This document shows, in pieces, positions 5,470-28,668 of a stretch of 53,292 nucleotides of DNA. The position numbers were made by a program, and so were the translations under genes. The DNA comes from a virus: IMG/VR virus record IMGVR_UViG_3300037297_000142, positions 1 through 53,292 of that record. One strand, given 5' to 3'. Below the pieces are notes generated by a model that was not told the DNA's origin, ran no database searches, and saw only the letters and a list, made by a program, of their open reading frames with translations. The stretch's first letter is position 1. Each line of letters begins with the position of its first letter.

Positions 5470-5967
5470 ATGATAACTTTTAAAACTCTAAAGTATAAAG
5501 ATTTAAGTGAAAAATTCGGAGATCCGGGAACCGATGAGGGGCTTTTTAGAATTAAACAAAGCTTGGTGACTAAAAAACTACCGTTTACTTTTTACAATGA
5601 AGATCGTAAAACAGGTAAACTTATCCCGGTAAATTATGTAAGAATCCATGGATATATAGCTGACGCATACATTGATGGATTGGAAGAAATACTTGAACAT
5701 TATGGACCTGAAGAGATTGAAAGGCTAACACTAAACAGAGAACACGGGGGGGGGTTTTGCCATCGTCCGATAAGAGATGGTAAAGATTGGTCTGTTCATG
5801 CCTGGGGTGCAGCCGTTGATCAATGGTGCCACATGGGGAAAATGGGGCAAGTCCCTAAAACACCGGAATTTTGTGTATTGGTTTTCAAGAAACGCGGGTT
5901 TGTTTGGGGTGGATATTTTCCAGGCAAATATATTGATGGTATGCATTGGAGTGTGTGTTTTGGGTAA
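5470..5967 (+). CDS. Endolysin, M15-family zinc peptidase-like
   Basis: SVHAWGAAVD and DGMHWS resemble the SxHxxGxAxD ... DxxHW pattern of peptidase M15 (VanY / L-Ala-D-Glu peptidase type); followed by a holin-like gene. Confidence 0.7.
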   Translation: MITFKTLKYKDLSEKFGDPGTDEGLFRIKQSLVTKKLPFTFYNEDRKTGKLIPVNYVRIHGYIADAYIDGLEEILEHYGPEEIERLTLNREHGGGFCHRPIRDGKDWSVHAWGAAVDQWCHMGKMGQVPKTPEFCVLVFKKRGFVWGGYFPGKYIDGMHWSVCFG

Positions 5968-6846: not shown

Positions 6847-6906
6847 TTTGAAACCTCCTTATTTTATGCGGATACCCCGAAGATACCCGCATAAAATTGG
6901 GAGATC

Positions 6907-7101
6907 TTAGTCAATACTTTTCCATGTAACATTACCTTTTATTGATCCGTAATCAATCCTTTTTAATCCTTGTTTTGTTTCCATGATGCTATCCCCAAAC
7001 TCCCCGACCACTTCACTCCAATCCTGTAATACTTGGGCAGCATCCGCACACGAAACCCCATCTTCATTATCGTATGTGATTGTTATAATTAATTTTCTCA
7101 T
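6907..7101 (-). CDS. Hypothetical protein
   Basis: 64 aa track ORF in the early arm, acidic. Confidence 0.5.
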   Translation of the reverse strand: MRKLIITITYDNEDGVSCADAAQVLQDWSEVVGEFGDSIMETKQGLKRIDYGSIKGNVTWKSID

Positions 7102-7113
7102 TTCTATTCCTTT

Positions 7114-7911
7114 CTATAGTGGAATACCAACTATTTTCATATATGTGAATGCATATTTACCGTTGTCGTATTTTATATGTCTTCCCCACATTTCAACCTT
7201 TACAATAATTTTTGTTGCGTCATAATTCGCGGAATCTTCTGGAAAAACAGCGTTTGCCGCTTCTTCTTTTGTTTTATACGCATAATAACCGCCCTGGTGA
7301 TTTGACTGTACTTTCTCTCTGTAAGTTTTCCCTTCTTCATATTTTTCTCCAGAGTAGATACTATAGTATTCATTATTAATGAGAGCGACTTTCTTGTACA
7401 TTATTTGCTTTTTAACTTTCCTTTTCGGGGTTTCTTTATTCATCGCTTTTTTGACTTCCCTGTAATTAAGCCCGTATTTTGAACAAACATGTTTCAATGT
7501 ACGGCAGTGTATCATGTATGAATATGGCCATGCCCGCGAAGGTGAACGCACCACGGCGCAACATTCGCATTTCTCCTTTTCAGACGGATACCAACGACCC
7601 GCATCGTCAAAGGTTCCATCCGGGTTAATTTCCCTTGATTGTAGTTTCTGATACTCTTCAATTGCTTTATTGATTGTTTGTTCTCTGTTAATTGAGCTGT
7701 CCAATTCCTCTATTTCTATACCAAGTTTTTTAATGTCATCTTTTGTTAAAATGATGCCATCTGGGTGATCTGCATAGGCTGACACATTTGAGTCAACCGG
7801 CCAAACAAGCGGAAATTCGAAAGGAAGTCTCGTAACGGGTTCCCCAGTATTAATGTACAGTATATCATAATCATTATCATCTCTTTTTCTCGCAAAAAAA
7901 TTGTTTTTCAT
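7114..7911 (-). CDS. Hypothetical protein (265 aa)
   Basis: Start moved to internal ATG 7911 (MKNNFFARK), which follows a GAGGGGAAA RBS. The track's N-terminal extension translates the GC-rich leader. Confidence 0.6.
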   Translation of the reverse strand: MKNNFFARKRDDNDYDILYINTGEPVTRLPFEFPLVWPVDSNVSAYADHPDGIILTKDDIKKLGIEIEELDSSINREQTINKAIEEYQKLQSREINPDGTFDDAGRWYPSEKEKCECCAVVRSPSRAWPYSYMIHCRTLKHVCSKYGLNYREVKKAMNKETPKRKVKKQIMYKKVALINNEYYSIYSGEKYEEGKTYREKVQSNHQGGYYAYKTKEEAANAVFPEDSANYDATKIIVKVEMWGRHIKYDNGKYAFTYMKIVGIPL

Positions 7912-8007
7912 CGTTTCCCCTCTTCTCCGGTCGCATCCCCGACCGGTGGGTAGTCTCATCAGTACCGGCATTACCGGCAGACCGGGGTCAACCCGGTTTC
8001 GACTTTG
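7912..8007 (-). promoter_or_regulatory. GC-rich structured leader L1
   Basis: Three consecutive hairpins on the minus-strand RNA: ACCGGG/CCCGGU, UGCCGG/CCGGUA and CCGGUCG/CGACCGG. Ends in the SD GAGGGGAAA. Confidence 0.55.
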
Positions 8008-8160
8008 TTAATCGTTTAATGACCAATAATTTATTTTTACAATCATTTTTTTACCTTTAATATTTTTACAAACAAATCCATTTTTTTTCATGGTATATAT
8101 ATCCGCTTCGAATATATCAATTACATTCATTTCTTTATCACATTCCATTCTTTCTTCCAT
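8008..8160 (-). CDS. Small hypothetical protein (50 aa)
   Basis: ATG 8160 after GGAGAAAGAGGAGAG. MEERMECDKEMNVIDIFEADIYTMKKNGFVCKNIKGKKMIVKINYWSLND. Shorter than the track cut-off. Confidence 0.45.
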   Translation of the reverse strand: MEERMECDKEMNVIDIFEADIYTMKKNGFVCKNIKGKKMIVKINYWSLND

Positions 8161-8220
8161 ACTCTCCTCTTTCTCCCCTTAACCCTGGGGGGTTGAGTAG
8201 GTGGGGTGCTAAAATAGCAA
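8161..8220 (-). promoter_or_regulatory. GC-rich leader L2 carrying the conserved block CCCCCAGGGUUAAGGGG
   Basis: The 17-nt block at 8175-8191 is identical to 9383-9399 and sits 13-14 nt upstream of the start codon in both cases. Confidence 0.5.
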
Positions 8221-8400
8221 TCACCAAGAATTTCCATCTCTATCATTCCAATGGAATGAATTACCCTGCGCTGTATTGCATTCATAACAATATCCATTTT
8301 CAATATTATTAGTTTCTTCACAGAAACTGTCTCCACAATTTTGACACGTAGCGACAATTTCTTTGTCACATTCCAAATGACCGGAACATTTCTTTGACAT
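8221..8400 (-). CDS. Small Cys-rich (zinc-ribbon-like) protein (59 aa)
   Basis: Start at internal ATG 8400. MSKKCSGHLECDKEIVATCQNCGDSFCEE...YCYECN has several CxxC pairs. Confidence 0.5.
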   Translation of the reverse strand: MSKKCSGHLECDKEIVATCQNCGDSFCEETNNIENGYCYECNTAQGNSFHWNDRDGNSW

Positions 8401-8485
8401 TTCTTGCTCTCTTTCTCGGGCATTACTCCCGTCCAGGCTGTCCGCGGACAACCCAGAGAGGAGGGGGATTTCTCCCCCTGCCGTG
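8401..8485 (-). promoter_or_regulatory. GC-rich structured leader L3
   Basis: Hairpins GGGGGA-GAAA-UCCCCC, GGGUUGUCC/GGACAGCCU and CGGG/CCCG. A CCUCCUCUCU tract could pair with the downstream SD GAGAAAGAGAG. Confidence 0.55.
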
Positions 8486-8908
8486 TTAGTATATAGTAAG
8501 TAGATTTTTGTTCTTTTTTCCTATTACCCCTTGAGGGAATAAAGGCATCTCATTAAATGGAATTGTAAATTCCGCACCTGCATGAATCTCATCATACTTG
8601 CGTACGATGAAAAAATCATAACCACATTTCTCTATTTCCTGCCGAGAGAGTATTTTCCCTTCAGGTGGCCGCTTGCGAAGCTGGAACACTATTGCAATAT
8701 CATCACAAGTTTGTTCATACTTAATACGATTTACGGGCACTTCTATTTCAAGAAGTTCTGACATAATTTGAGCCGTCGAATTGTGTCCTATTACGGATTC
8801 ATAATCGTTATCAGCAATAAGTAGTTTTACTTCCAGGAGTGTAATTTTCTTTTTCAAGAAAATTCCTTCTGTAGTCATAATACTACAGTTCATTAATGTT
8901 ATTTGCAC
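8486..8908 (-). CDS. DUF1874 (STIV B116-like) family protein
   Basis: 140 aa. SVIGHNSTAQIMSELLEIEVPVNRI...IAIVFQLRKRPPEGKIL matches my recollection of the AIGH..tA...vp.nR...qL.gR..EG pattern. Confidence 0.6.
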   Translation of the reverse strand: MQITLMNCSIMTTEGIFLKKKITLLEVKLLIADNDYESVIGHNSTAQIMSELLEIEVPVNRIKYEQTCDDIAIVFQLRKRPPEGKILSRQEIEKCGYDFFIVRKYDEIHAGAEFTIPFNEMPLFPQGVIGKKNKNLLTIY

Positions 8909-9087
8909 AATAAACCCCTTTCTTGTAATTCTTCAATTTCAGCATTACTTACTTTTTCAAGTATCCGTAAATACTGACATCCATATGATCCGCATTTGTC
9001 TCTATACCACCCATTTTCTGTTTTATGGTACATAATTGCCGCTGTACCATTATTGAAATCAACAATATGACTTTCCATTATCTTCAT
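8899..9087 (-). CDS. Hypothetical protein (62 aa)
   Basis: Track ORF; overlaps the DUF1874 gene start by 10 nt, consistent with translational coupling. Confidence 0.5.
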   Translation of the reverse strand: MKIMESHIVDFNNGTAAIMYHKTENGWYRDKCGSYGCQYLRILEKVSNAEIEELQERGLLCK

Positions 9088-9219
9088 ATTCTTCCTCTTC
9101 TCTCTGCCACGTACCCGGCAGCCGGTAATTTCGCCCAGGCACCCCGCAGGGTGACCGGGTAAAATGAGGAGAGTTTGTACAGTACTCTCCTCAATAAAGA
9201 CTTAATAATATTCGTTCGC
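9088..9219 (-). promoter_or_regulatory. Leader L4: intrinsic terminator followed by GC-rich hairpins
   Basis: UGAGGAGAGU/ACUCUCCUCA stem plus UUUU (9161-9193), then CACCC/GGGUG and CUGCC/GGCAG hairpins. The motif GCCGGGUAC is shared with L1. Confidence 0.55.
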
Positions 9220-9369
9220 AAGTAACCATGAAAATGCGGATTCCTCAGCATCTTCTTTTTGATCAAAGGGCGGGACATTACTGCTATTCGTAATTTCCTG
9301 CCCATTATCGTATATTACATACGACCATGTTTCCGTAGTCTGATTATAATCATATTTCGTCGTTATCAT
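9220..9369 (-). CDS. Small hypothetical protein (49 aa)
   Basis: ATG 9369 after GGAGAG. MITTKYDYNQTTETWSYVIYDNGQEITNSSNVPPFDQKEDAEESAFSWLLANEYY. Shorter than the track cut-off. Confidence 0.4.
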
Positions 9370-9467
9370 GATTCTCTCCTTTCCCCTTAACCCTGGGGGT
9401 AGGGTAAATATAGGAAACCGGGGGAATTGAACCCCCTCCCGTGATGGTCAGCCTTGTTTCCGTGTGC
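9370..9467 (-). promoter_or_regulatory. Leader L5: tRNA-like acceptor/T-arm minihelix plus the conserved CCCCCAGGGUUAAGGGG block
   Basis: RNA reads GGAAAC..(19 nt)..GGGGG-UUCAAUU-CCCCC-GUUUCC (9412-9461), followed by the block at 9383-9399. Confidence 0.5.
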
Positions 9468-9728
9468 TTAATTGAAAATCGTTGTGAAATTGTTTGCTTT
9501 CCATAGCCGAATAAGATCTTCTTTTTCATAATCAAGGTGATTAAAAAAGAAAACCAATTCTGAAAAGTTTTCTTTCTCCCATGTCTGCTTAATTGCATTT
9601 CTGATTGCAGTAATCAGAAATGCATATTTGTTTTGTCTTCTTTCGTTTTTTGTACAAAAAGAAAGTTTTCTTTCCAATTCTACATATATTTTTCCTTTGA
9701 AAGATTCCTGTTTCTCTGTAAGTTCCAT
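9468..9728 (-). CDS. Hypothetical protein (86 aa)
   Basis: Start moved to ATG 9728 (MELTEKQESF), which follows AAGGGAGAAAGAAGGGAA. The track's N-terminal extension lies in the GC-rich leader. Confidence 0.5.
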   Translation of the reverse strand: MELTEKQESFKGKIYVELERKLSFCTKNERRQNKYAFLITAIRNAIKQTWEKENFSELVFFFNHLDYEKEDLIRLWKANNFTTIFN

Positions 9729-10046
9729 AATTCCCTTCTTTCTCCCTTTCGGGTAATTACAAGCAGGAAGCCGAATCAATACACTTCCTCGACCGTAGGT
9801 TCCCACATGATTCGGTTTCACTTCCTGCTATGGAAACATGCGCCCTTGAAACGCCCGTCAGCCTGGTTACTGATTGTTCCCCTGTTCTGTTTTTCCCCGC
9901 CGTTTCGGTTAGTCCTGGGCTTTTTCGGTTTCCCGCTTTCCACCTGTACGCTCTTTCAGGTTTCTGCCCTCAACCCCGATGTGGTCACTTCCGGCCACCC
10001 GGCTGCTTATCAAATAACATCCGCCCTGCTGTTTCCCTCACTCTCT
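9729..10046 (-). promoter_or_regulatory. Long (about 318 nt) purine-rich, GC-rich untranslated leader L6 / candidate structured RNA
   Basis: 57% GC where counted (9841-9900), in an AT-rich genome. Stops in all three minus-strand frames. GAAA-capped hairpins, a long-range GGAAACA/UGUUUCC pairing and a 17-bp interrupted hairpin at 9762-9829. Confidence 0.55.
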
Positions 10047-10052
10047 ATTAAT

Positions 10053-10081
10053 AGTATACTCCAATATCGTTTAAACGTCAA
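10053..10081 (-). promoter_or_regulatory. Sigma70-type promoter driving leader L6
   Basis: TTGACG, 17 nt, TATACT on the minus strand. Confidence 0.6.
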
Positions 10082-10131
10082 GCATTTTATGAAAAATAAT
10101 TAAAAGAATTTCATTTTTTTTTCTCATGATA

Positions 10132-10337: not shown

Positions 10338-10403
10338 AATATATAAAAAAAACGTATAAACGTCAACCTTTTACTTGACGTTTATACGATAATGTATTAT
10401 ATT
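10338..10403. promoter_or_regulatory. Divergent promoter pair built on a perfect 14-bp inverted repeat
   Basis: CGTATAAACGTCAA (10353-10366), 8 nt, TTGACGTTTATACG (10375-10388). Each arm supplies a TTGACG -35 box, 17 nt from a TATATT -10 on its own strand. Confidence 0.65.
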
Positions 10404-28354: not shown

Positions 28355-28391
28355 GTTTTAGATACAGGAGGTTTGTTAATGAATGCCTGGT

Positions 28392-28463
28392 AGCGGAGTA
28401 GAGCAGGGGTAGCTTGACGGTCTCATAAGCCGTAGGTCAGTGGTTCAATTCCACTCTCCGCTA
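28392..28463 (+). tRNA. tRNA with anticodon CAU (elongator Met or lysidine-modified Ile2)
   Basis: Hand-folded cloverleaf, 72 nt. Acceptor AGCGGAG/CTCCGCT, D arm GAGC..GCTT, anticodon arm ACGGT-CTCATAA-GCCGT, T arm AGTGG-TTCAATT-CCACT. No encoded CCA. Lacks the initiator features (no 1:72 mismatch, no three G-C pairs in the anticodon stem). Confidence 0.85.
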
Positions 28464-28668
28464 AACTTATTATAAAGGTAATAAATGCGTATGAAAGGAG
28501 GTGATTTTCAGCGCGGGGAAACGGAAAGCCCGCTATTATTTAATTACTAATGTTTTATTATTATATAATTTATTTAGTTTATTTTATTGTAATCAGCGGC
28601 GGTCTGTTAGGCTGCCGCATGTTATTAAAGGAATATATAGGTAAATATTTTATTGGTAAGGTGAAAAA

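What the first reader, a model, noticed from the sequence alone, without database searches (positions are those of the whole stretch)
7912..9467. GC-rich, hairpin-dense leaders in front of nearly every small early gene
Seen in sequence: in an arm made of very AT-rich genes, each gap between the small minus-strand genes from 9728 down to 7114 is conspicuously GC-rich and built from consecutive near-perfect hairpins. L1 (7912-8007) has ACCGGG/CCCGGU, UGCCGG/CCGGUA and CCGGUCG/CGACCGG. L3 (8401-8485) has GGGGGA-GAAA-UCCCCC, GGGUUGUCC/GGACAGCCU and CGGG/CCCG. L4 (9088-9219) has a true terminator followed by CACCC/GGGUG and CUGCC/GGCAG. L2 and L5 share an identical 17-mer, and L1 and L4 share GCCGG(G)UAC. 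Only L4 has a U tract, so these are mostly not terminators. Each leader ends in a purine-rich SD (GGGGA/AGAAAG) that nearby C-rich tracts could sequester. Inference: this may be a family of cis-regulatory RNAs (riboswitch-like, thermosensor, protein- or sRNA-controlled) or processing signals gating likely host-takeover or anti-defence genes, including a DUF1874 gene. Candidate RNA motifs upstream of phage DUF genes have been reported from comparative genomics. I cannot tell from memory whether any of them matches.
Basis: partly seen in the sequence, partly recalled or inferred. Interest (0 to 1): 0.7.

Follow-up and report, generated by a model that had tools for sequence, protein, structure and literature searches.

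The report
Modular RNA-processing leaders between phage genes
The GC-rich gaps between small early genes of this AT-rich phage are conserved RNA cassettes, including a hammerhead ribozyme, a tRNA-like mini-helix, long hairpins and a small pseudoknot next to the ribosome-binding site, that most likely cut one long transcript into single-gene messages with protected, well-defined starts.

Summary
They are not one RNA family. They are a mosaic of conserved modules that recur in about 45 related phage contigs.

- **L1:** a type II hammerhead ribozyme with a complete catalytic core. It scores 31.6 bits, below Rfam's cut-off of 37, but four relatives score 39-45 bits. Predicted cleavage is between 7980 and 7979.
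- **L5:** a tRNA-like mini-helix, an acceptor stem plus a perfect T arm.
- **L3:** a three-way junction with a long helix.
- **L4:** a weak terminator-like hairpin followed by a 16-bp helix.
- **L1, L2, L4 and L5:** each ends in a compact H-type pseudoknot 11-21 nt before the AUG, directly next to a polypurine Shine-Dalgarno sequence. The shared 17-mer of L2 and L5 is this pseudoknot.

Compensatory changes support all of these structures. Only the hammerhead matches Rfam.

Best reading (inferred, not shown): these are intercistronic processing and insulating cassettes for an anti-defence operon that includes an AcrIII-1-type DUF1874 gene. Hammerheads flanking phage genes are already known. The pseudoknot-SD, tRNA-like and hairpin modules appear undescribed. 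I rate this a new variant of a known kind, of moderate-to-high interest.

The parts
7912..8007 (-). Leader L1 between gene F and gene G: hammerhead ribozyme, then a pseudoknot or hairpin, then the SD.
   Evidence: GC 0.615. The minimum-energy fold reproduces the three-stem hammerhead plus the CCGGUCG/CGACCGG hairpin.
7945..8004 (-). Type II hammerhead ribozyme. Stem II is AGUC 8004-8001 paired with GACU 7955-7952. GAAA is 8000-7997. Stem III is 7997-7992 with 7986-7981. C17 is 7980. Stem I is 7979-7974 with 7968-7963. CUGAUGA is 7962-7956. Predicted self-cleavage is between 7980 and 7979.
   Evidence: Rfam RF02276 scores 31.6 bits (gathering score 37), E=1.7e-4 in 601 nt and 1e-3 in 3.6 kb. 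All core positions match. Relatives L004, L179, L209 and L207 score 44.4, 45.0, 43.0 and 39.2 bits. In the five-sequence alignment 96% of cells pair and 5 pairs show compensatory change.
7927..7951 (-). Hairpin CCGGUCG (7946-7940) with CGACCGG (7933-7927). An imperfect pseudoknot stem is possible between ACCC (7951-7948) and GGG(G) (7939-7937). The polypurine SD lies at 7925-7916.
   Evidence: The topology matches the pseudoknots found in relatives. Stem 1 is only 3 bp here, so this is weaker than in L2, L4 and L5.
8161..8220 (-). Leader L2 between gene E and gene F: a small hairpin, then the 'PK17' pseudoknot (8194-8175: AACC, CCCC, AG, GGUU, AA, GGGG), then the SD GAGAAAGAGGAGAG.
8401..8485 (-). 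Leader L3 between gene D (DUF1874/AcrIII-1-like) and gene E: a three-way junction. The outer helix pairs 8482-8479 with 8422-8419. The first hairpin pairs 8478-8473 with 8468-8463. The long helix pairs 8462-8447 with 8442-8427. The SD follows.
   Evidence: Fold z=-3.25. Relatives are L165:1112 (90% identical over 52 nt), L206:1387 and L214, and the long helix is kept through many changes on both sides. A covariance model of the related-looking T-type hairpin does not hit it.
9166..9192 (-). First hairpin of L4: GAGGAGAG, an 11-nt loop, CUCUCCUC, followed by AUUUU (9165-9161). It looks like a weak intrinsic terminator or a 3'-end hairpin for gene B.
   Evidence: helix 1: 98.7% of cells paired, 2 compensatory pairs. 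The terminator scanner did not call it, because the loop exceeds 8 nt and there are only 4 U.
9128..9165 (-). Second hairpin of L4: a 16-bp imperfect helix, AUUUU-A-CCCGG-U-CACCC-UGCG-GGGUG-C-CUGGG-C-GAAAU. It carries an invariant U.G / A.C tandem at its base.
   Evidence: Alignment A3 of 10 homologues, helix 2: 95.6% of cells paired and 4 compensatory pairs. Fold z=-3.6 for L4 as a whole.
9104..9127 (-). H-type pseudoknot of L4. Stem 1 is UACC 9127-9124 with GGUA 9115-9112. Stem 2 is CUGCC 9121-9117 with GGCAG 9108-9104. The polypurine SD at 9103-9091 follows directly.
   Evidence: score 25. In homologues stem 1 covaries: UACC/GGUA, UGCC/GGCA and UGCC/GGUA.
9413..9461 (-). tRNA-like mini-helix in L5. 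The acceptor-like stem is GGAAAC(A) 9461-9455 with GGUUUCC 9419-9413. The T arm is GGGGG-UUCAAUU-CCCCC at 9436-9420. There is no D arm and no anticodon arm.
   Evidence: The T arm matches the tmRNA/tRNA T arm (16.3 bits, E=2.5e-4). ARAGORN calls no tRNA there. The same design, with different stem sequences, occurs in L002 (twice), L158, L179, L188, L196 and L206.
9383..9405 (-). PK17 pseudoknot of L5: ACCCU, AC, CCCC, AGGGU, UAA, GGGG. The SD AAAGGAGAG follows.
   Evidence: (score 25).
9729..10046 (-). A 318-nt purine-rich, GC-rich leader in front of gene A. It ends in the small hairpin ACCC-GAAA-GGG (9754-9744) followed by the SD.
   Evidence: Folding is not significant (z=-1.2). Its start is conserved in L004, L178 and L209.
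10053..10081 (-). Sigma-70-like promoter TTGACG-17-TATACT, which would start the transcript that carries all the leaders. A second such promoter lies at 10366-10338.
   Evidence: This is a consensus match only.
8486..8908 (-). Gene D, a protein of the STIV_B116-like / DUF1874 family, which is the AcrIII-1 ring-nuclease anti-CRISPR family.
   Evidence: Pfam PF08960, E=4.5e-25. Family function is from bioRxiv 10.1101/778746.

Best explanation
The leaders are intercistronic RNA cassettes of one long early transcript, probably started at the sigma-70-like promoters at 10081-10053 and 10366-10338. Each cassette has two parts.

The 5' part makes RNA ends:
- In L1 a type II hammerhead ribozyme cuts itself between 7980 and 7979.
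- In L5 a tRNA-like acceptor/T-arm mini-helix is the kind of substrate that RNase P and RNase Z cut.
- In L3 and L4, long imperfect helices of 16 bp or more are the kind of substrate RNase III cuts in phage T7 early RNA.
- The first hairpin of L4 can also stop or pause some transcription, and would protect the 3' end of the upstream message.

The 3' part is a compact H-type pseudoknot that ends 11-21 nt before the AUG and abuts a polypurine Shine-Dalgarno sequence. In some leaders it is a small hairpin, and L3 has neither. It would give each released mRNA a structured 5' end that resists 5'-end-dependent decay. It would also keep the ribosome-binding site free of pairing with whatever lies upstream. 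This is the same logic as the synthetic RiboJ insulator (hammerhead plus hairpin plus RBS).

What is shown: the sequences, their conservation, the covariation, and the hammerhead core. What is inferred: cleavage at any site, the nucleases involved, and the stabilising and insulating effect.
For: 1. Hammerhead. L1 matches RF02276 across the whole model, with CUGAUGA, GAAA, A15.1-U16.1 and C17 all present. The minimum-energy fold gives the three-stem junction. Four homologous leaders in relatives pass Rfam's gathering score. Stems I and III and the loop I/tail pseudoknot show compensatory changes.
2. Second ribozyme class. A twister-like element (41.4 bits, E=1.2e-5, below the gathering score) occupies the same leader position in relative L148.
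3. tRNA-like mini-helices. Their acceptor and T stems covary, and they sit in the same position in 7 or more leaders. Full tRNAs also occur in these operons.
4. Hairpins. The L4-type helices are 95.6% paired with 7 compensatory pairs. The T-type helix has 9 of 16 pairs with compensatory change. L3 relatives keep the helix with different sequence.
5. Pseudoknot. The 17-mer recurs in about 56 distinct leaders. It is preceded by ACC(C/U) or AACC, mostly 2-4 variable nt upstream, and followed by SD and AUG 10-19 nt later. Sequence-different pseudoknots of the same topology sit at the same distance from the AUG, for example UACC..CUGCC..GGUA..GGCAG, ACCG..UCCCGGA..CGGU..UCCGGGA and UAGC..CUCCCG..GCUA..CGGGGG. 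After all 17-mer leaders are removed, such pseudoknots are still enriched: 8.9% of leaders against 1.9% of shuffles at score 22 or more, and 5.7% against 0.7% at 24 or more.
6. Transcription. Sigma-70-like promoters lie upstream of leaders in W, L150, L156, L159 and L003, so the motif is transcribed.
7. Precedent. Several hammerheads flanking single genes in prophages were proposed, and shown in vitro, to cut long phage transcripts (PMC3088659).
Against: - There is no experimental or transcriptomic evidence of cleavage at any of these sites.
- The window's own hammerhead is below Rfam's gathering score. It also lacks the loop I/3'-tail pseudoknot that its relatives have and that fast type II hammerheads usually need (PMC3088659), so it could be slow or inactive.
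- RNase P, RNase Z and RNase III cleavage of L5, L3 and L4 is inference from shape alone. The host is unknown.
- L2 has no obvious cutting module.
- L2 and L5 do not fold better than shuffles in a nested-structure model.
- The loci were collected by exact match to the 17-mer, so most pseudoknot copies carry no independent covariation. The support comes from a dozen or so variants.
- Sequence conservation of the 17-mer across phages of 32-48% GC could also reflect a DNA-level role or a protein-binding role.
Confidence: 0.5

Rival explanations
1. The leaders are translational or transcriptional control elements rather than cutting sites. A phage or host protein, a small RNA, temperature or a ligand would bind the conserved pseudoknot or the conserved U.G/A.C internal loops. 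That binding would open or close the ribosome-binding site, timing the expression of the whole set of early genes.
For: - The pseudoknot abuts the SD in every case.
- In L004:2786 and L158:3829 the GGAGG that serves as the SD is paired with CCUCC at the base of the T-type helix.
- In L1 the minimum-energy fold pairs CCC with the GGG of the SD region.
- Many copies of one motif per genome fit a single trans-acting regulator.
- Precedent from general knowledge, not tested here: the T4 gene 32 leader pseudoknot and the T4 RegA and RegB operators.
Against: - No Rfam riboswitch or thermometer match.
- The pseudoknot usually pairs the G run 5' of the SD, not the SD itself.
- A hammerhead core, a twister-like element and tRNA-like helices at the same positions point to end formation.
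- No candidate RNA-binding regulator was identified.
Confidence: 0.22
2. The conserved intergenic sequences act at the DNA level. They could be shared junctions for recombinational shuffling of small gene cassettes, attC-like or 'linker' sequences, as was suggested for the DUF1874 RNA motif. Alternatively the 17-mer could be a phage-specific promoter of T7 type (..TTAA|GGGGAGA).
For: - The same leader end precedes the same gene (MKYIGMY...) in different upstream contexts, and different genes in different phages.
- The 17-mer is identical across contigs of 32-48% GC.
- Weinberg et al. 2017 noted a motif in consecutive intergenic regions near DUF1874 genes and raised an attC-like role (PMC5737381).
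- The layout AT-rich tetramer followed by GGGAGA resembles single-subunit RNA polymerase promoters (general knowledge).
Against: - All modules are in the sense orientation directly before an SD and AUG.
- Stem sequences change while pairing is kept, including in a pseudoknot, which a promoter does not need.
- The spacing between ACCC and the C run varies, mostly 2-4 nt.
- No integrase and no phage RNA polymerase were found among the window ORFs scanned, although not every ORF was scanned and the genome may extend beyond the window.
- Host-type promoters lie upstream of the leaders.
Confidence: 0.13
3. The hairpins are only terminators or attenuators and 3'-end stabilisers (REP-like). No endonucleolytic processing occurs, and the hammerhead is a decayed relic.
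For: - The first hairpin of L4 is followed by UUUU, and this U run is invariant in 10 homologues.
- The window hammerhead is below the Rfam threshold and lacks the tertiary pseudoknot.
- The hammerheads in L004 and L209 carry CUGAUAA, that is G8 changed to A.
Against: - Only one of the five leaders has a U tract.
- The scanner calls no terminator in L1 on the sense strand, nor in L2-L4. Its one sense-strand call, in L5, is the T arm.
- The hammerhead core is intact in W, L179 and L207, with compensatory stem changes, which is not expected of a relic.
Confidence: 0.1

Closest known systems
Type II hammerhead ribozymes flanking genes in prophages and phages (Perreault et al. 2011, PMC3088659; Rfam RF02276)
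   Same: L1 has the complete hammerhead core. [quoted passage not shown] It lies between two small phage genes. Relatives carry the typical loop I/3'-tail pseudoknot. The published proposal is the same: long phage transcripts are cut into single-gene mRNAs.
   Different: The window copy scores below the gathering cut-off and lacks the loop I/tail pseudoknot. Here the hammerhead is only one of several interchangeable modules, and it is followed by a separate pseudoknot-SD unit.
RNase III processing sites between the early genes of phage T7, and 5' stabilisers of Bacillus phage SP82 early RNA (general knowledge, not tested here)
   Same: There are structured intergenic hairpins between consecutive small early genes. 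The helices are long and imperfect, with conserved internal mismatches (L3, L4). A polypurine tract and a structure lie at the new 5' end.
   Different: There is no sequence relationship. Cleavage is not shown and the host and its RNases are unknown. Here the modules also include a ribozyme and tRNA-like elements.
tRNA punctuation and tRNA-like processing elements (mitochondrial transcripts, MALAT1 mascRNA, archaeal tRNA-like elements; general knowledge)
   Same: An acceptor stem stacked on a canonical T arm (UUCAAUU loop) sits between coding regions, in the sense orientation. Real tRNAs occur in the same operons of relatives.
   Different: The element has no D arm or anticodon arm and no CCA. 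It is not called as a tRNA by ARAGORN or Rfam. RNase P or RNase Z cleavage is untested.
DUF1874 RNA motif (Weinberg et al. 2017, PMC5737381)
   Same: That motif is described as a multistem motif with a conserved internal loop, found in the 5' UTRs of consecutive intergenic regions in metagenomic DNA near DUF1874 genes. This is the same striking arrangement as here, and a DUF1874 gene is present.
   Different: No leader in the window or in relatives matched any Rfam 15 family other than hammerhead, twister or a tRNA T arm, even at E up to 10. I could not see the published consensus, and I could not confirm that the motif is in the Rfam copy, so identity is neither shown nor excluded.
RiboJ-type synthetic insulators (hammerhead plus hairpin in front of an RBS; general knowledge)
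   Same: L1 has the same order of parts: a self-cleaving hammerhead, a stable structure, then SD and AUG.
   Different: This is a natural element. The structure is a pseudoknot, and the function is inferred only.
preQ1-I riboswitch, a small H-type pseudoknot next to the SD (general knowledge)
   Same: Both are pseudoknots of about 22-25 nt immediately 5' of an SD.
   Different: The loop lengths and conserved bases differ: loop 3 here is only 2-4 nt and is not an A-rich tail. There is no Rfam hit. The motif occurs many times per genome before unrelated genes.

Membership tests
Hammerhead ribozyme, type II (RF02276) | Conserved core: C3 U4 G5 A6 N7 G8 A9, G12 A13 A14, the A15.1-U16.1 pair, and H17 at the cleavage site. 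| tested here: met
   CUGAUGA at 7962-7956, GAAA at 8000-7997, A7997-U7981, C7980.
Hammerhead ribozyme, type II (RF02276) | Three helices around the core, with stems I and III closed by loops and stem II open. | tested here: met
   The minimum-energy fold of 7945-8004 gives exactly this. In the alignment with four relatives 96% of cells pair and 5 pairs show compensatory change.
Hammerhead ribozyme, type II (RF02276) | Score at or above Rfam's gathering threshold of 37 bits. | tested here: not met
   The window copy scores 31.6 bits and is absent from the gathering-threshold scan. Relatives score 39.2-45.0 bits.
Hammerhead ribozyme, type II (RF02276) | Tertiary contact: a pseudoknot between loop I and the 3' tail. 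This is typical but not obligatory. | tested here: not met
   It is present in L004, L209, L179 and L207 (UAGCC/GGCUA or AGGCU/AGCCU). The window copy has loop UAAUG and no clear partner.
Hammerhead ribozyme, type II (RF02276) | Self-cleavage that yields a 2',3'-cyclic phosphate and a 5'-OH. | not testable with these tools
   Needs in vitro transcription or end-specific RNA-seq.
Twister ribozyme | Match to a twister covariance model. | tested here: not met
   No hit in the window. Only relative L148 has a sub-threshold twister-P1 match: 41.4 bits against a cut-off of 67.2.
tRNA / tRNA-like processing element | A 7-bp acceptor stem continuous with a 5-bp T stem and a canonical 7-nt T loop. | tested here: met
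   GGAAACA ... GGGGG-UUCAAUU-CCCCC-GGUUUCC at 9461-9413, with 6 of 7 acceptor pairs.
tRNA / tRNA-like processing element | A full cloverleaf with D arm and anticodon arm, that is, a real tRNA gene. | tested here: not met
   ARAGORN and the Rfam tRNA model call nothing in L5. Only 19 unstructured nt lie between the acceptor strand and the T arm.
tRNA / tRNA-like processing element | Cleavage by RNase P or RNase Z. | not testable with these tools
   Inference from shape only.
DUF1874 RNA motif (Weinberg 2017) | Occurs in consecutive intergenic regions, in 5' UTRs, near DUF1874 genes. | tested here: met
   Five consecutive structured leaders, with a DUF1874 gene at 8486-8908.
DUF1874 RNA motif (Weinberg 2017) | Sequence and structure match to the published consensus. 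| tested here: inconclusive
   No Rfam 15 hit at E up to 10. I could not verify that the family is in the library, and no supplement with the consensus was available.
T-type hairpin family of related phages (this study, model R1) | Match to a covariance model built from 7 T-type leaders (CCUCUAUGCGG...ACACGGAGG). | tested here: not met
   L3 and L4 of the window are not hit at E up to 1. L169 and L001 L4-type leaders are hit, at 34 and 32 bits. L3 resembles the family in architecture only.
Intrinsic (Rho-independent) terminator | A GC-rich stem followed directly by a U run. | tested here: inconclusive
   Only the first hairpin of L4 qualifies, with an 8-bp stem, an 11-nt loop and 4 U. The scanner did not call it. 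The U run is invariant in homologues but also pairs with the downstream GAAA.
Riboswitch | Match to a known aptamer class, or a single conserved ligand pocket upstream of functionally related genes. | tested here: not met
   No Rfam riboswitch hit. The motifs precede unrelated small genes many times per genome.
Integron attC site | An adjacent integron integrase, and imperfect palindromes that act as single-stranded DNA. | tested here: not met
   No integrase among the scanned ORFs, though not every ORF was scanned. The ssDNA role itself cannot be tested here.

The most novel reading that the evidence does not exclude
At least one of the modules that match nothing in Rfam is a new functional RNA class. 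One possibility is a new self-cleaving ribozyme. The candidates are the L3-type three-way junction, or the L4/T-type helix with its invariant U.G/A.C tandem. Both occupy the same slot as hammerhead and twister elements in this group of phages, which is the kind of context that led to the discovery of pistol, hatchet and twister-sister. The other possibility is that the pseudoknot-SD unit is a previously unrecognised, widespread 5'-end protection and translation element of phage mRNAs.
Probability: 0.12. Interest if true: 0.85.

Novelty: new variant of a known kind. Interest (0 to 1): 0.6.

Why it matters
What self-cleaving ribozymes do in bacteria and phages is still an open question. This is a compact natural case in which a hammerhead is interchangeable, position for position, with tRNA-like helices, long hairpins and (in a relative) a twister-like element. 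Nearly all are followed by the same small pseudoknot and a ribosome-binding site. That makes the 'transcript punctuation and insulation' idea directly testable on a 2.5-kb operon.

The operon carries an AcrIII-1-type anti-CRISPR gene, so the cassettes may set the dosage and timing of anti-defence genes. The finding also yields several conserved RNA motifs that are absent from Rfam and that are candidates for new processing signals or ribozymes. It further points to natural parts equivalent to the synthetic RiboJ insulator.

Tried and rejected
- **Close phage relatives:** BLAST of 6900-10100 against 50,697 GenBank phage genomes found nothing. A protein-based search with gene G in IMG/VR also found nothing.
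- **Short DNA pattern:** the 14-mer CTCTATGCGGCTGC gave mostly chance hits in IMG/VR. Only L001, L002 and L004 were real.
- **One RNA family:** rejected. The modules differ, and a covariance model of the T-type hairpin does not detect L3 or L4 of the window.
- **Known ribozyme, riboswitch or RAGATH families for L2-L5:** rejected, with no Rfam hits even at E up to 10 in short stretches. The RAGATH-27 and ilvH hits (19 and 17.6 bits) are noise.
- **L5 as a real tRNA or a tmRNA:** rejected.
- **L5 T arm as an attP remnant of a host tRNA:** unlikely. Both acceptor strands are present, several different mini-helices occur per genome, and all are in the sense orientation before an SD.
- **Group II intron domain V, K-turn, preQ1-I or guanidine-III for the T-type and pseudoknot modules:** considered from memory and dropped, because the defining bases are missing (AGC triad, GA/AG tandem, A-rich tail) and there is no Rfam hit.
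- **17-mer as a T7-type promoter:** not excluded, but disfavoured (see the rival explanations).
- **Asgard-archaeal host:** suggested because one related contig is binned in a Promethearchaeota MAG. This is doubtful, because the window encodes an M15 peptidoglycan peptidase and uses sigma-70-like promoters and strong SD sequences.
- **The 318-nt leader before gene A:** its folding is not significant, so I made no structural claim.

Full report
**Observation**

The window is a 32.4% GC phage genome segment. It encodes terminase large and small subunits, a primase, a helicase, an SbcCD-like nuclease, a DNA methylase, ThyX and an M15 peptidase.

On the minus strand between 9728 and 6907 lie eight small genes. 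Five gaps separate them:

| Leader | Coordinates | Length (nt) | GC |
|---|---|---|---|
| L5 | 9370-9467 | 98 | 0.54 |
| L4 | 9088-9201 | 114 | 0.54 |
| L3 | 8401-8485 | 85 | 0.61 |
| L2 | 8161-8220 | 60 | 0.52 |
| L1 | 7912-8007 | 96 | 0.62 |

The genes themselves are 22-37% GC.

Against dinucleotide shuffles, L4 (z=-3.6), L3 (z=-3.3) and L1 (z=-2.1) fold unusually well. L2 and L5 do not. A sixth GC-rich leader of 318 nt precedes gene A (9729-10046). It lies downstream of a sigma-70-like promoter at 10081-10053.

**L1 is a hammerhead ribozyme**

A permissive Rfam scan gave one meaningful hit. Hammerhead_II (RF02276) matches 7945-8004 on the minus strand over the full model, at 31.6 bits against a gathering score of 37. 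The E-value is 1e-3 in 3.6 kb and 1.7e-4 in 601 nt.

All core positions are there: CUGAUGA, GAAA, the A15.1-U16.1 pair and C17. The minimum-energy fold is the three-stem junction. Predicted cleavage is between 7980 and 7979.

Homologous leaders in related contigs pass the Rfam threshold: L004 at 44.4, L179 at 45.0, L209 at 43.0 and L207 at 39.2 bits. In the five-sequence alignment 96% of cells pair and five pairs show changes on both sides. The slid-register controls pair at only 26-42%.

There are two cautions. The window copy lacks the loop I/3'-tail pseudoknot that its relatives have and that is important for fast cleavage (PMC3088659). It is also below the curated cut-off.

**Relatives**

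GenBank phages hold no relative. The 17-mer shared by L2 and L5 served as a marker instead. It found 5 IMG/VR contigs and 68 metagenome contigs. About 45 of these are true relatives, in which the 17-mer is followed by a polypurine SD and an AUG.

BLAST of the window's early region against these loci found homologues of L4 in ten contigs, of L3 in L165, of L5 in L001, L158 and L179, and of gene G in L201.

**The 17-mer is a pseudoknot next to the SD**

In about 56 distinct leaders the motif reads: A/U-rich sequence, ACC(C/U) or AACC, mostly 2-4 variable nt, CCCC, A, GGGU, UAA, GGGG, then AG..GGAG and an AUG 10-19 nt after the GGGG. This is an H-type pseudoknot. Stem 1 is ACCC/GGGU and stem 2 is CCCC/GGGG.

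These loci were collected by the exact 17-mer, so the test of the fold has to come from variants. Leaders in the same position carry pseudoknots of the same topology but different sequence:

- L4 of the window: UACC, GG, CUGCC, G, GGUA, CGU, GGCAG.
- Homologues of L4: UGCC/GGCA.
- L165: ACCC, A, CCUGCCG, GGGU, UG, CGGCAGG.
- L004: ACCG, UCCCGGA, CGGU, A, UCCGGGA.
- L188: UAGC, GUG, CUCCCG, GCUA, UA, CGGGGG.
- L001: UGCUUG, CCCC, CAGGCA, UAA, GGGG.

With all 17-mer leaders removed, such pseudoknots ending 8-26 nt before a start codon occur in 8.9% of SD-bearing leaders against 1.9% of dinucleotide shuffles (score 22 or more). At score 24 or more the figures are 5.7% against 0.7%.

L1 has the stem 2 hairpin (CCGGUCG/CGACCGG), but only an imperfect stem 1. 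Host-type promoters (TTGACA-17-TATAAT) lie upstream of such leaders in several contigs. The motif is therefore transcribed as a 5' UTR.

**L5 holds a tRNA-like mini-helix**

The stretch 9461-9413 reads GGAAACA, 19 nt, GGGGG-UUCAAUU-CCCCC, GGUUUCC. That is an acceptor-like stem continuous with a perfect T arm. Rfam aligns the T arm to tmRNA and tRNA T arms. ARAGORN and the tRNA model call no gene there.

The same design with different stem sequences is found in L002 (twice), L158, L179, L188, L196 and L206. It is always just upstream of the pseudoknot or SD. Complete tRNAs occur in the same operons of L206 and L214.

This is the minimal shape recognised by RNase P and RNase Z. That statement is general knowledge, and cleavage is inferred.

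**L4 and L3 are conserved helices**

L4 has three parts in order. The first is a hairpin GAGGAGAG/CUCUCCUC followed by an invariant UUUU. The second is a 16-bp helix in which that UUUU pairs with an invariant GAAA, with an invariant A.C mismatch beside a U.G pair. The third is the pseudoknot. Over ten homologues 95.6% of cells pair and seven pairs change on both sides.

L3 folds as a three-way junction. L165:1112, L206:1387 and L214 share it, and the long helix is rebuilt from different sequence in L206 and extended in L214.

A look-alike family in relatives, which I call T-type (CCUCUAUGCGG..helix..ACACGGAGG), has 9 of 16 pairs with compensatory changes. A covariance model of it detects some L4-type leaders in L169 and L001. 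It does not detect L3 or L4 of the window, so I do not file L3 under it.

In L004 and L158 the GGAGG at the base of the T-type helix is itself the SD of the next gene. None of these modules matches any Rfam 15 family, even at E up to 10 in a 541-nt search.

**A second ribozyme class in the same slot**

In relative L148 a twister-P1-like element sits directly before an SD and AUG. It scores 41.4 bits, below the cut-off of 67.2, with E=1.2e-5 in 68 kb.

**Interpretation**

The leaders are combinations of interchangeable modules. Each has an 'end-forming' module (hammerhead, twister-like, tRNA-like or long helix), followed in most cases by a pseudoknot-SD unit.

The simplest account is the one Perreault et al. 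proposed for prophage hammerheads, and the one T7 achieves with RNase III: a long early transcript is cut into single-gene mRNAs. The structured element next to the SD would then define and protect the new 5' end and insulate the ribosome-binding site, as in the synthetic RiboJ design. This is inference, because no cleavage has been observed.

The rival readings are:

- Protein- or ligand-operated translational control.
- A DNA-level role, either as recombination linkers or attC-like sites (as suggested for the DUF1874 RNA motif), or as a phage promoter.
- Plain terminator or stabiliser hairpins.

**Comparison with known systems and novelty**

The hammerhead part is a known kind. The arrangement of structured motifs in consecutive intergenic regions near a DUF1874 gene matches the published description of the DUF1874 RNA motif. 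I could not confirm or exclude identity with it.

The pseudoknot-SD unit, the tRNA-like mini-helices in mRNA leaders, and the L3- and L4-type helices appear undescribed. Their position alongside two ribozyme classes makes them reasonable candidates for new processing elements.

Gene D belongs to the AcrIII-1 ring-nuclease family, so this is probably an anti-defence operon.

**Verdict**

The finding is a new variant of a known kind. Interest is 0.6.

Noticed in passing
window 9729-10046 (minus strand): A 318-nt purine-rich, 52% GC untranslated leader lies between a sigma-70-like promoter (10081-10053) and gene A. It contains three copies of AACCGAA(A) and ends in ACCC-GAAA-GGG followed by the SD. 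Its start is conserved in L004, L178 and L209. Folding is not significant (z=-1.2). Its function is unknown.
   Followed up: partly
window 8486-8908 (minus strand): Gene D is a STIV_B116-like / DUF1874 protein (E=4.5e-25). This is the family of the AcrIII-1 viral ring nuclease, which degrades cA4 and blocks type III CRISPR signalling. It overlaps the end of gene C by 10 nt and has no leader of its own.
   Followed up: partly
L198 (metagenome contig Ga0210056_1116889), about 130-300: This is a CRISPR array with the type I-E-like repeat GTGTTCCCCACAGGCGTGGGGATGAACCG. One spacer, AACCCGGCCCCCAGGGTTAAGGGGAAGGAGAA, matches the conserved pseudoknot-SD leader. Some host is therefore targeting this conserved non-coding sequence, and the repeat could be used to identify the host.
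   Followed up: no
L148 1903-1954 (minus strand): A twister-P1-like element lacking the P3 hairpin (41.4 bits, below the cut-off of 67.2) sits directly upstream of an SD and AUG in a related contig.
   Followed up: partly
L214 (JARRLT010000001.1, binned as a Promethearchaeota MAG); window 5470-5967: A 44.7-kb relative of 32.5% GC, carrying an L3-type leader plus the 17-mer, is binned in an Asgard archaeon MAG. Other relatives are binned with Saccharibacteria and with 'bacterium SM23_31'. The window encodes an M15 D-Ala-D-Ala peptidase and uses sigma-70-like promoters, so a bacterial host is more likely and the binning is probably wrong.
   Followed up: partly
window 10353-10388: A 36-bp near-perfect palindrome, CGTATAAACGTCAAGTAAAAGGTTGACGTTTATACG, lies between the divergent early promoters. 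Its two arms carry the TTGACG -35 boxes of both promoters. It sits next to a 61-aa MerR/HTH gene (10317-10132) and looks like an operator for that regulator.
   Followed up: no
window 9160-9161/9132-9133; A4 columns 32-33/73-74 (T-type leaders): An invariant tandem of a U.G wobble next to an A.C mismatch (5'-UA-3' opposite 5'-CG-3') sits at the base of both the L4-type and the T-type helices. The T-type helix has a second C.A mismatch two pairs further in. Conserved non-Watson-Crick pairs of this kind suggest a specific recognition or metal-binding site. They remain unexplained.
   Followed up: no
L004 2786-2830 and L158 3829-3785: In these two leaders the GGAGG at the 3' base of the T-type helix is the only SD of the next gene (AUG 6-7 nt downstream), and it is paired with CCUCC. 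Translation there should depend on opening or cutting the helix.
   Followed up: no
L004 1639-1702 and L209 2674-2737: These hammerheads pass the Rfam threshold but read CUGAUAA, that is G8 changed to A without the compensating C3-to-U change. That is expected to lower activity. They may be slow or regulated variants.
   Followed up: no
window 28391-28464: A tRNA-Met (CAT) gene lies in the phage genome (64.2 bits).
   Followed up: no
several loci: L146, L148, L175, L179, L192, L203: The same small gene (MKYIGMY...) is preceded by the same pseudoknot-SD leader but lies behind different upstream genes and modules. Small gene cassettes thus seem to be shuffled at the leaders.
   Followed up: no
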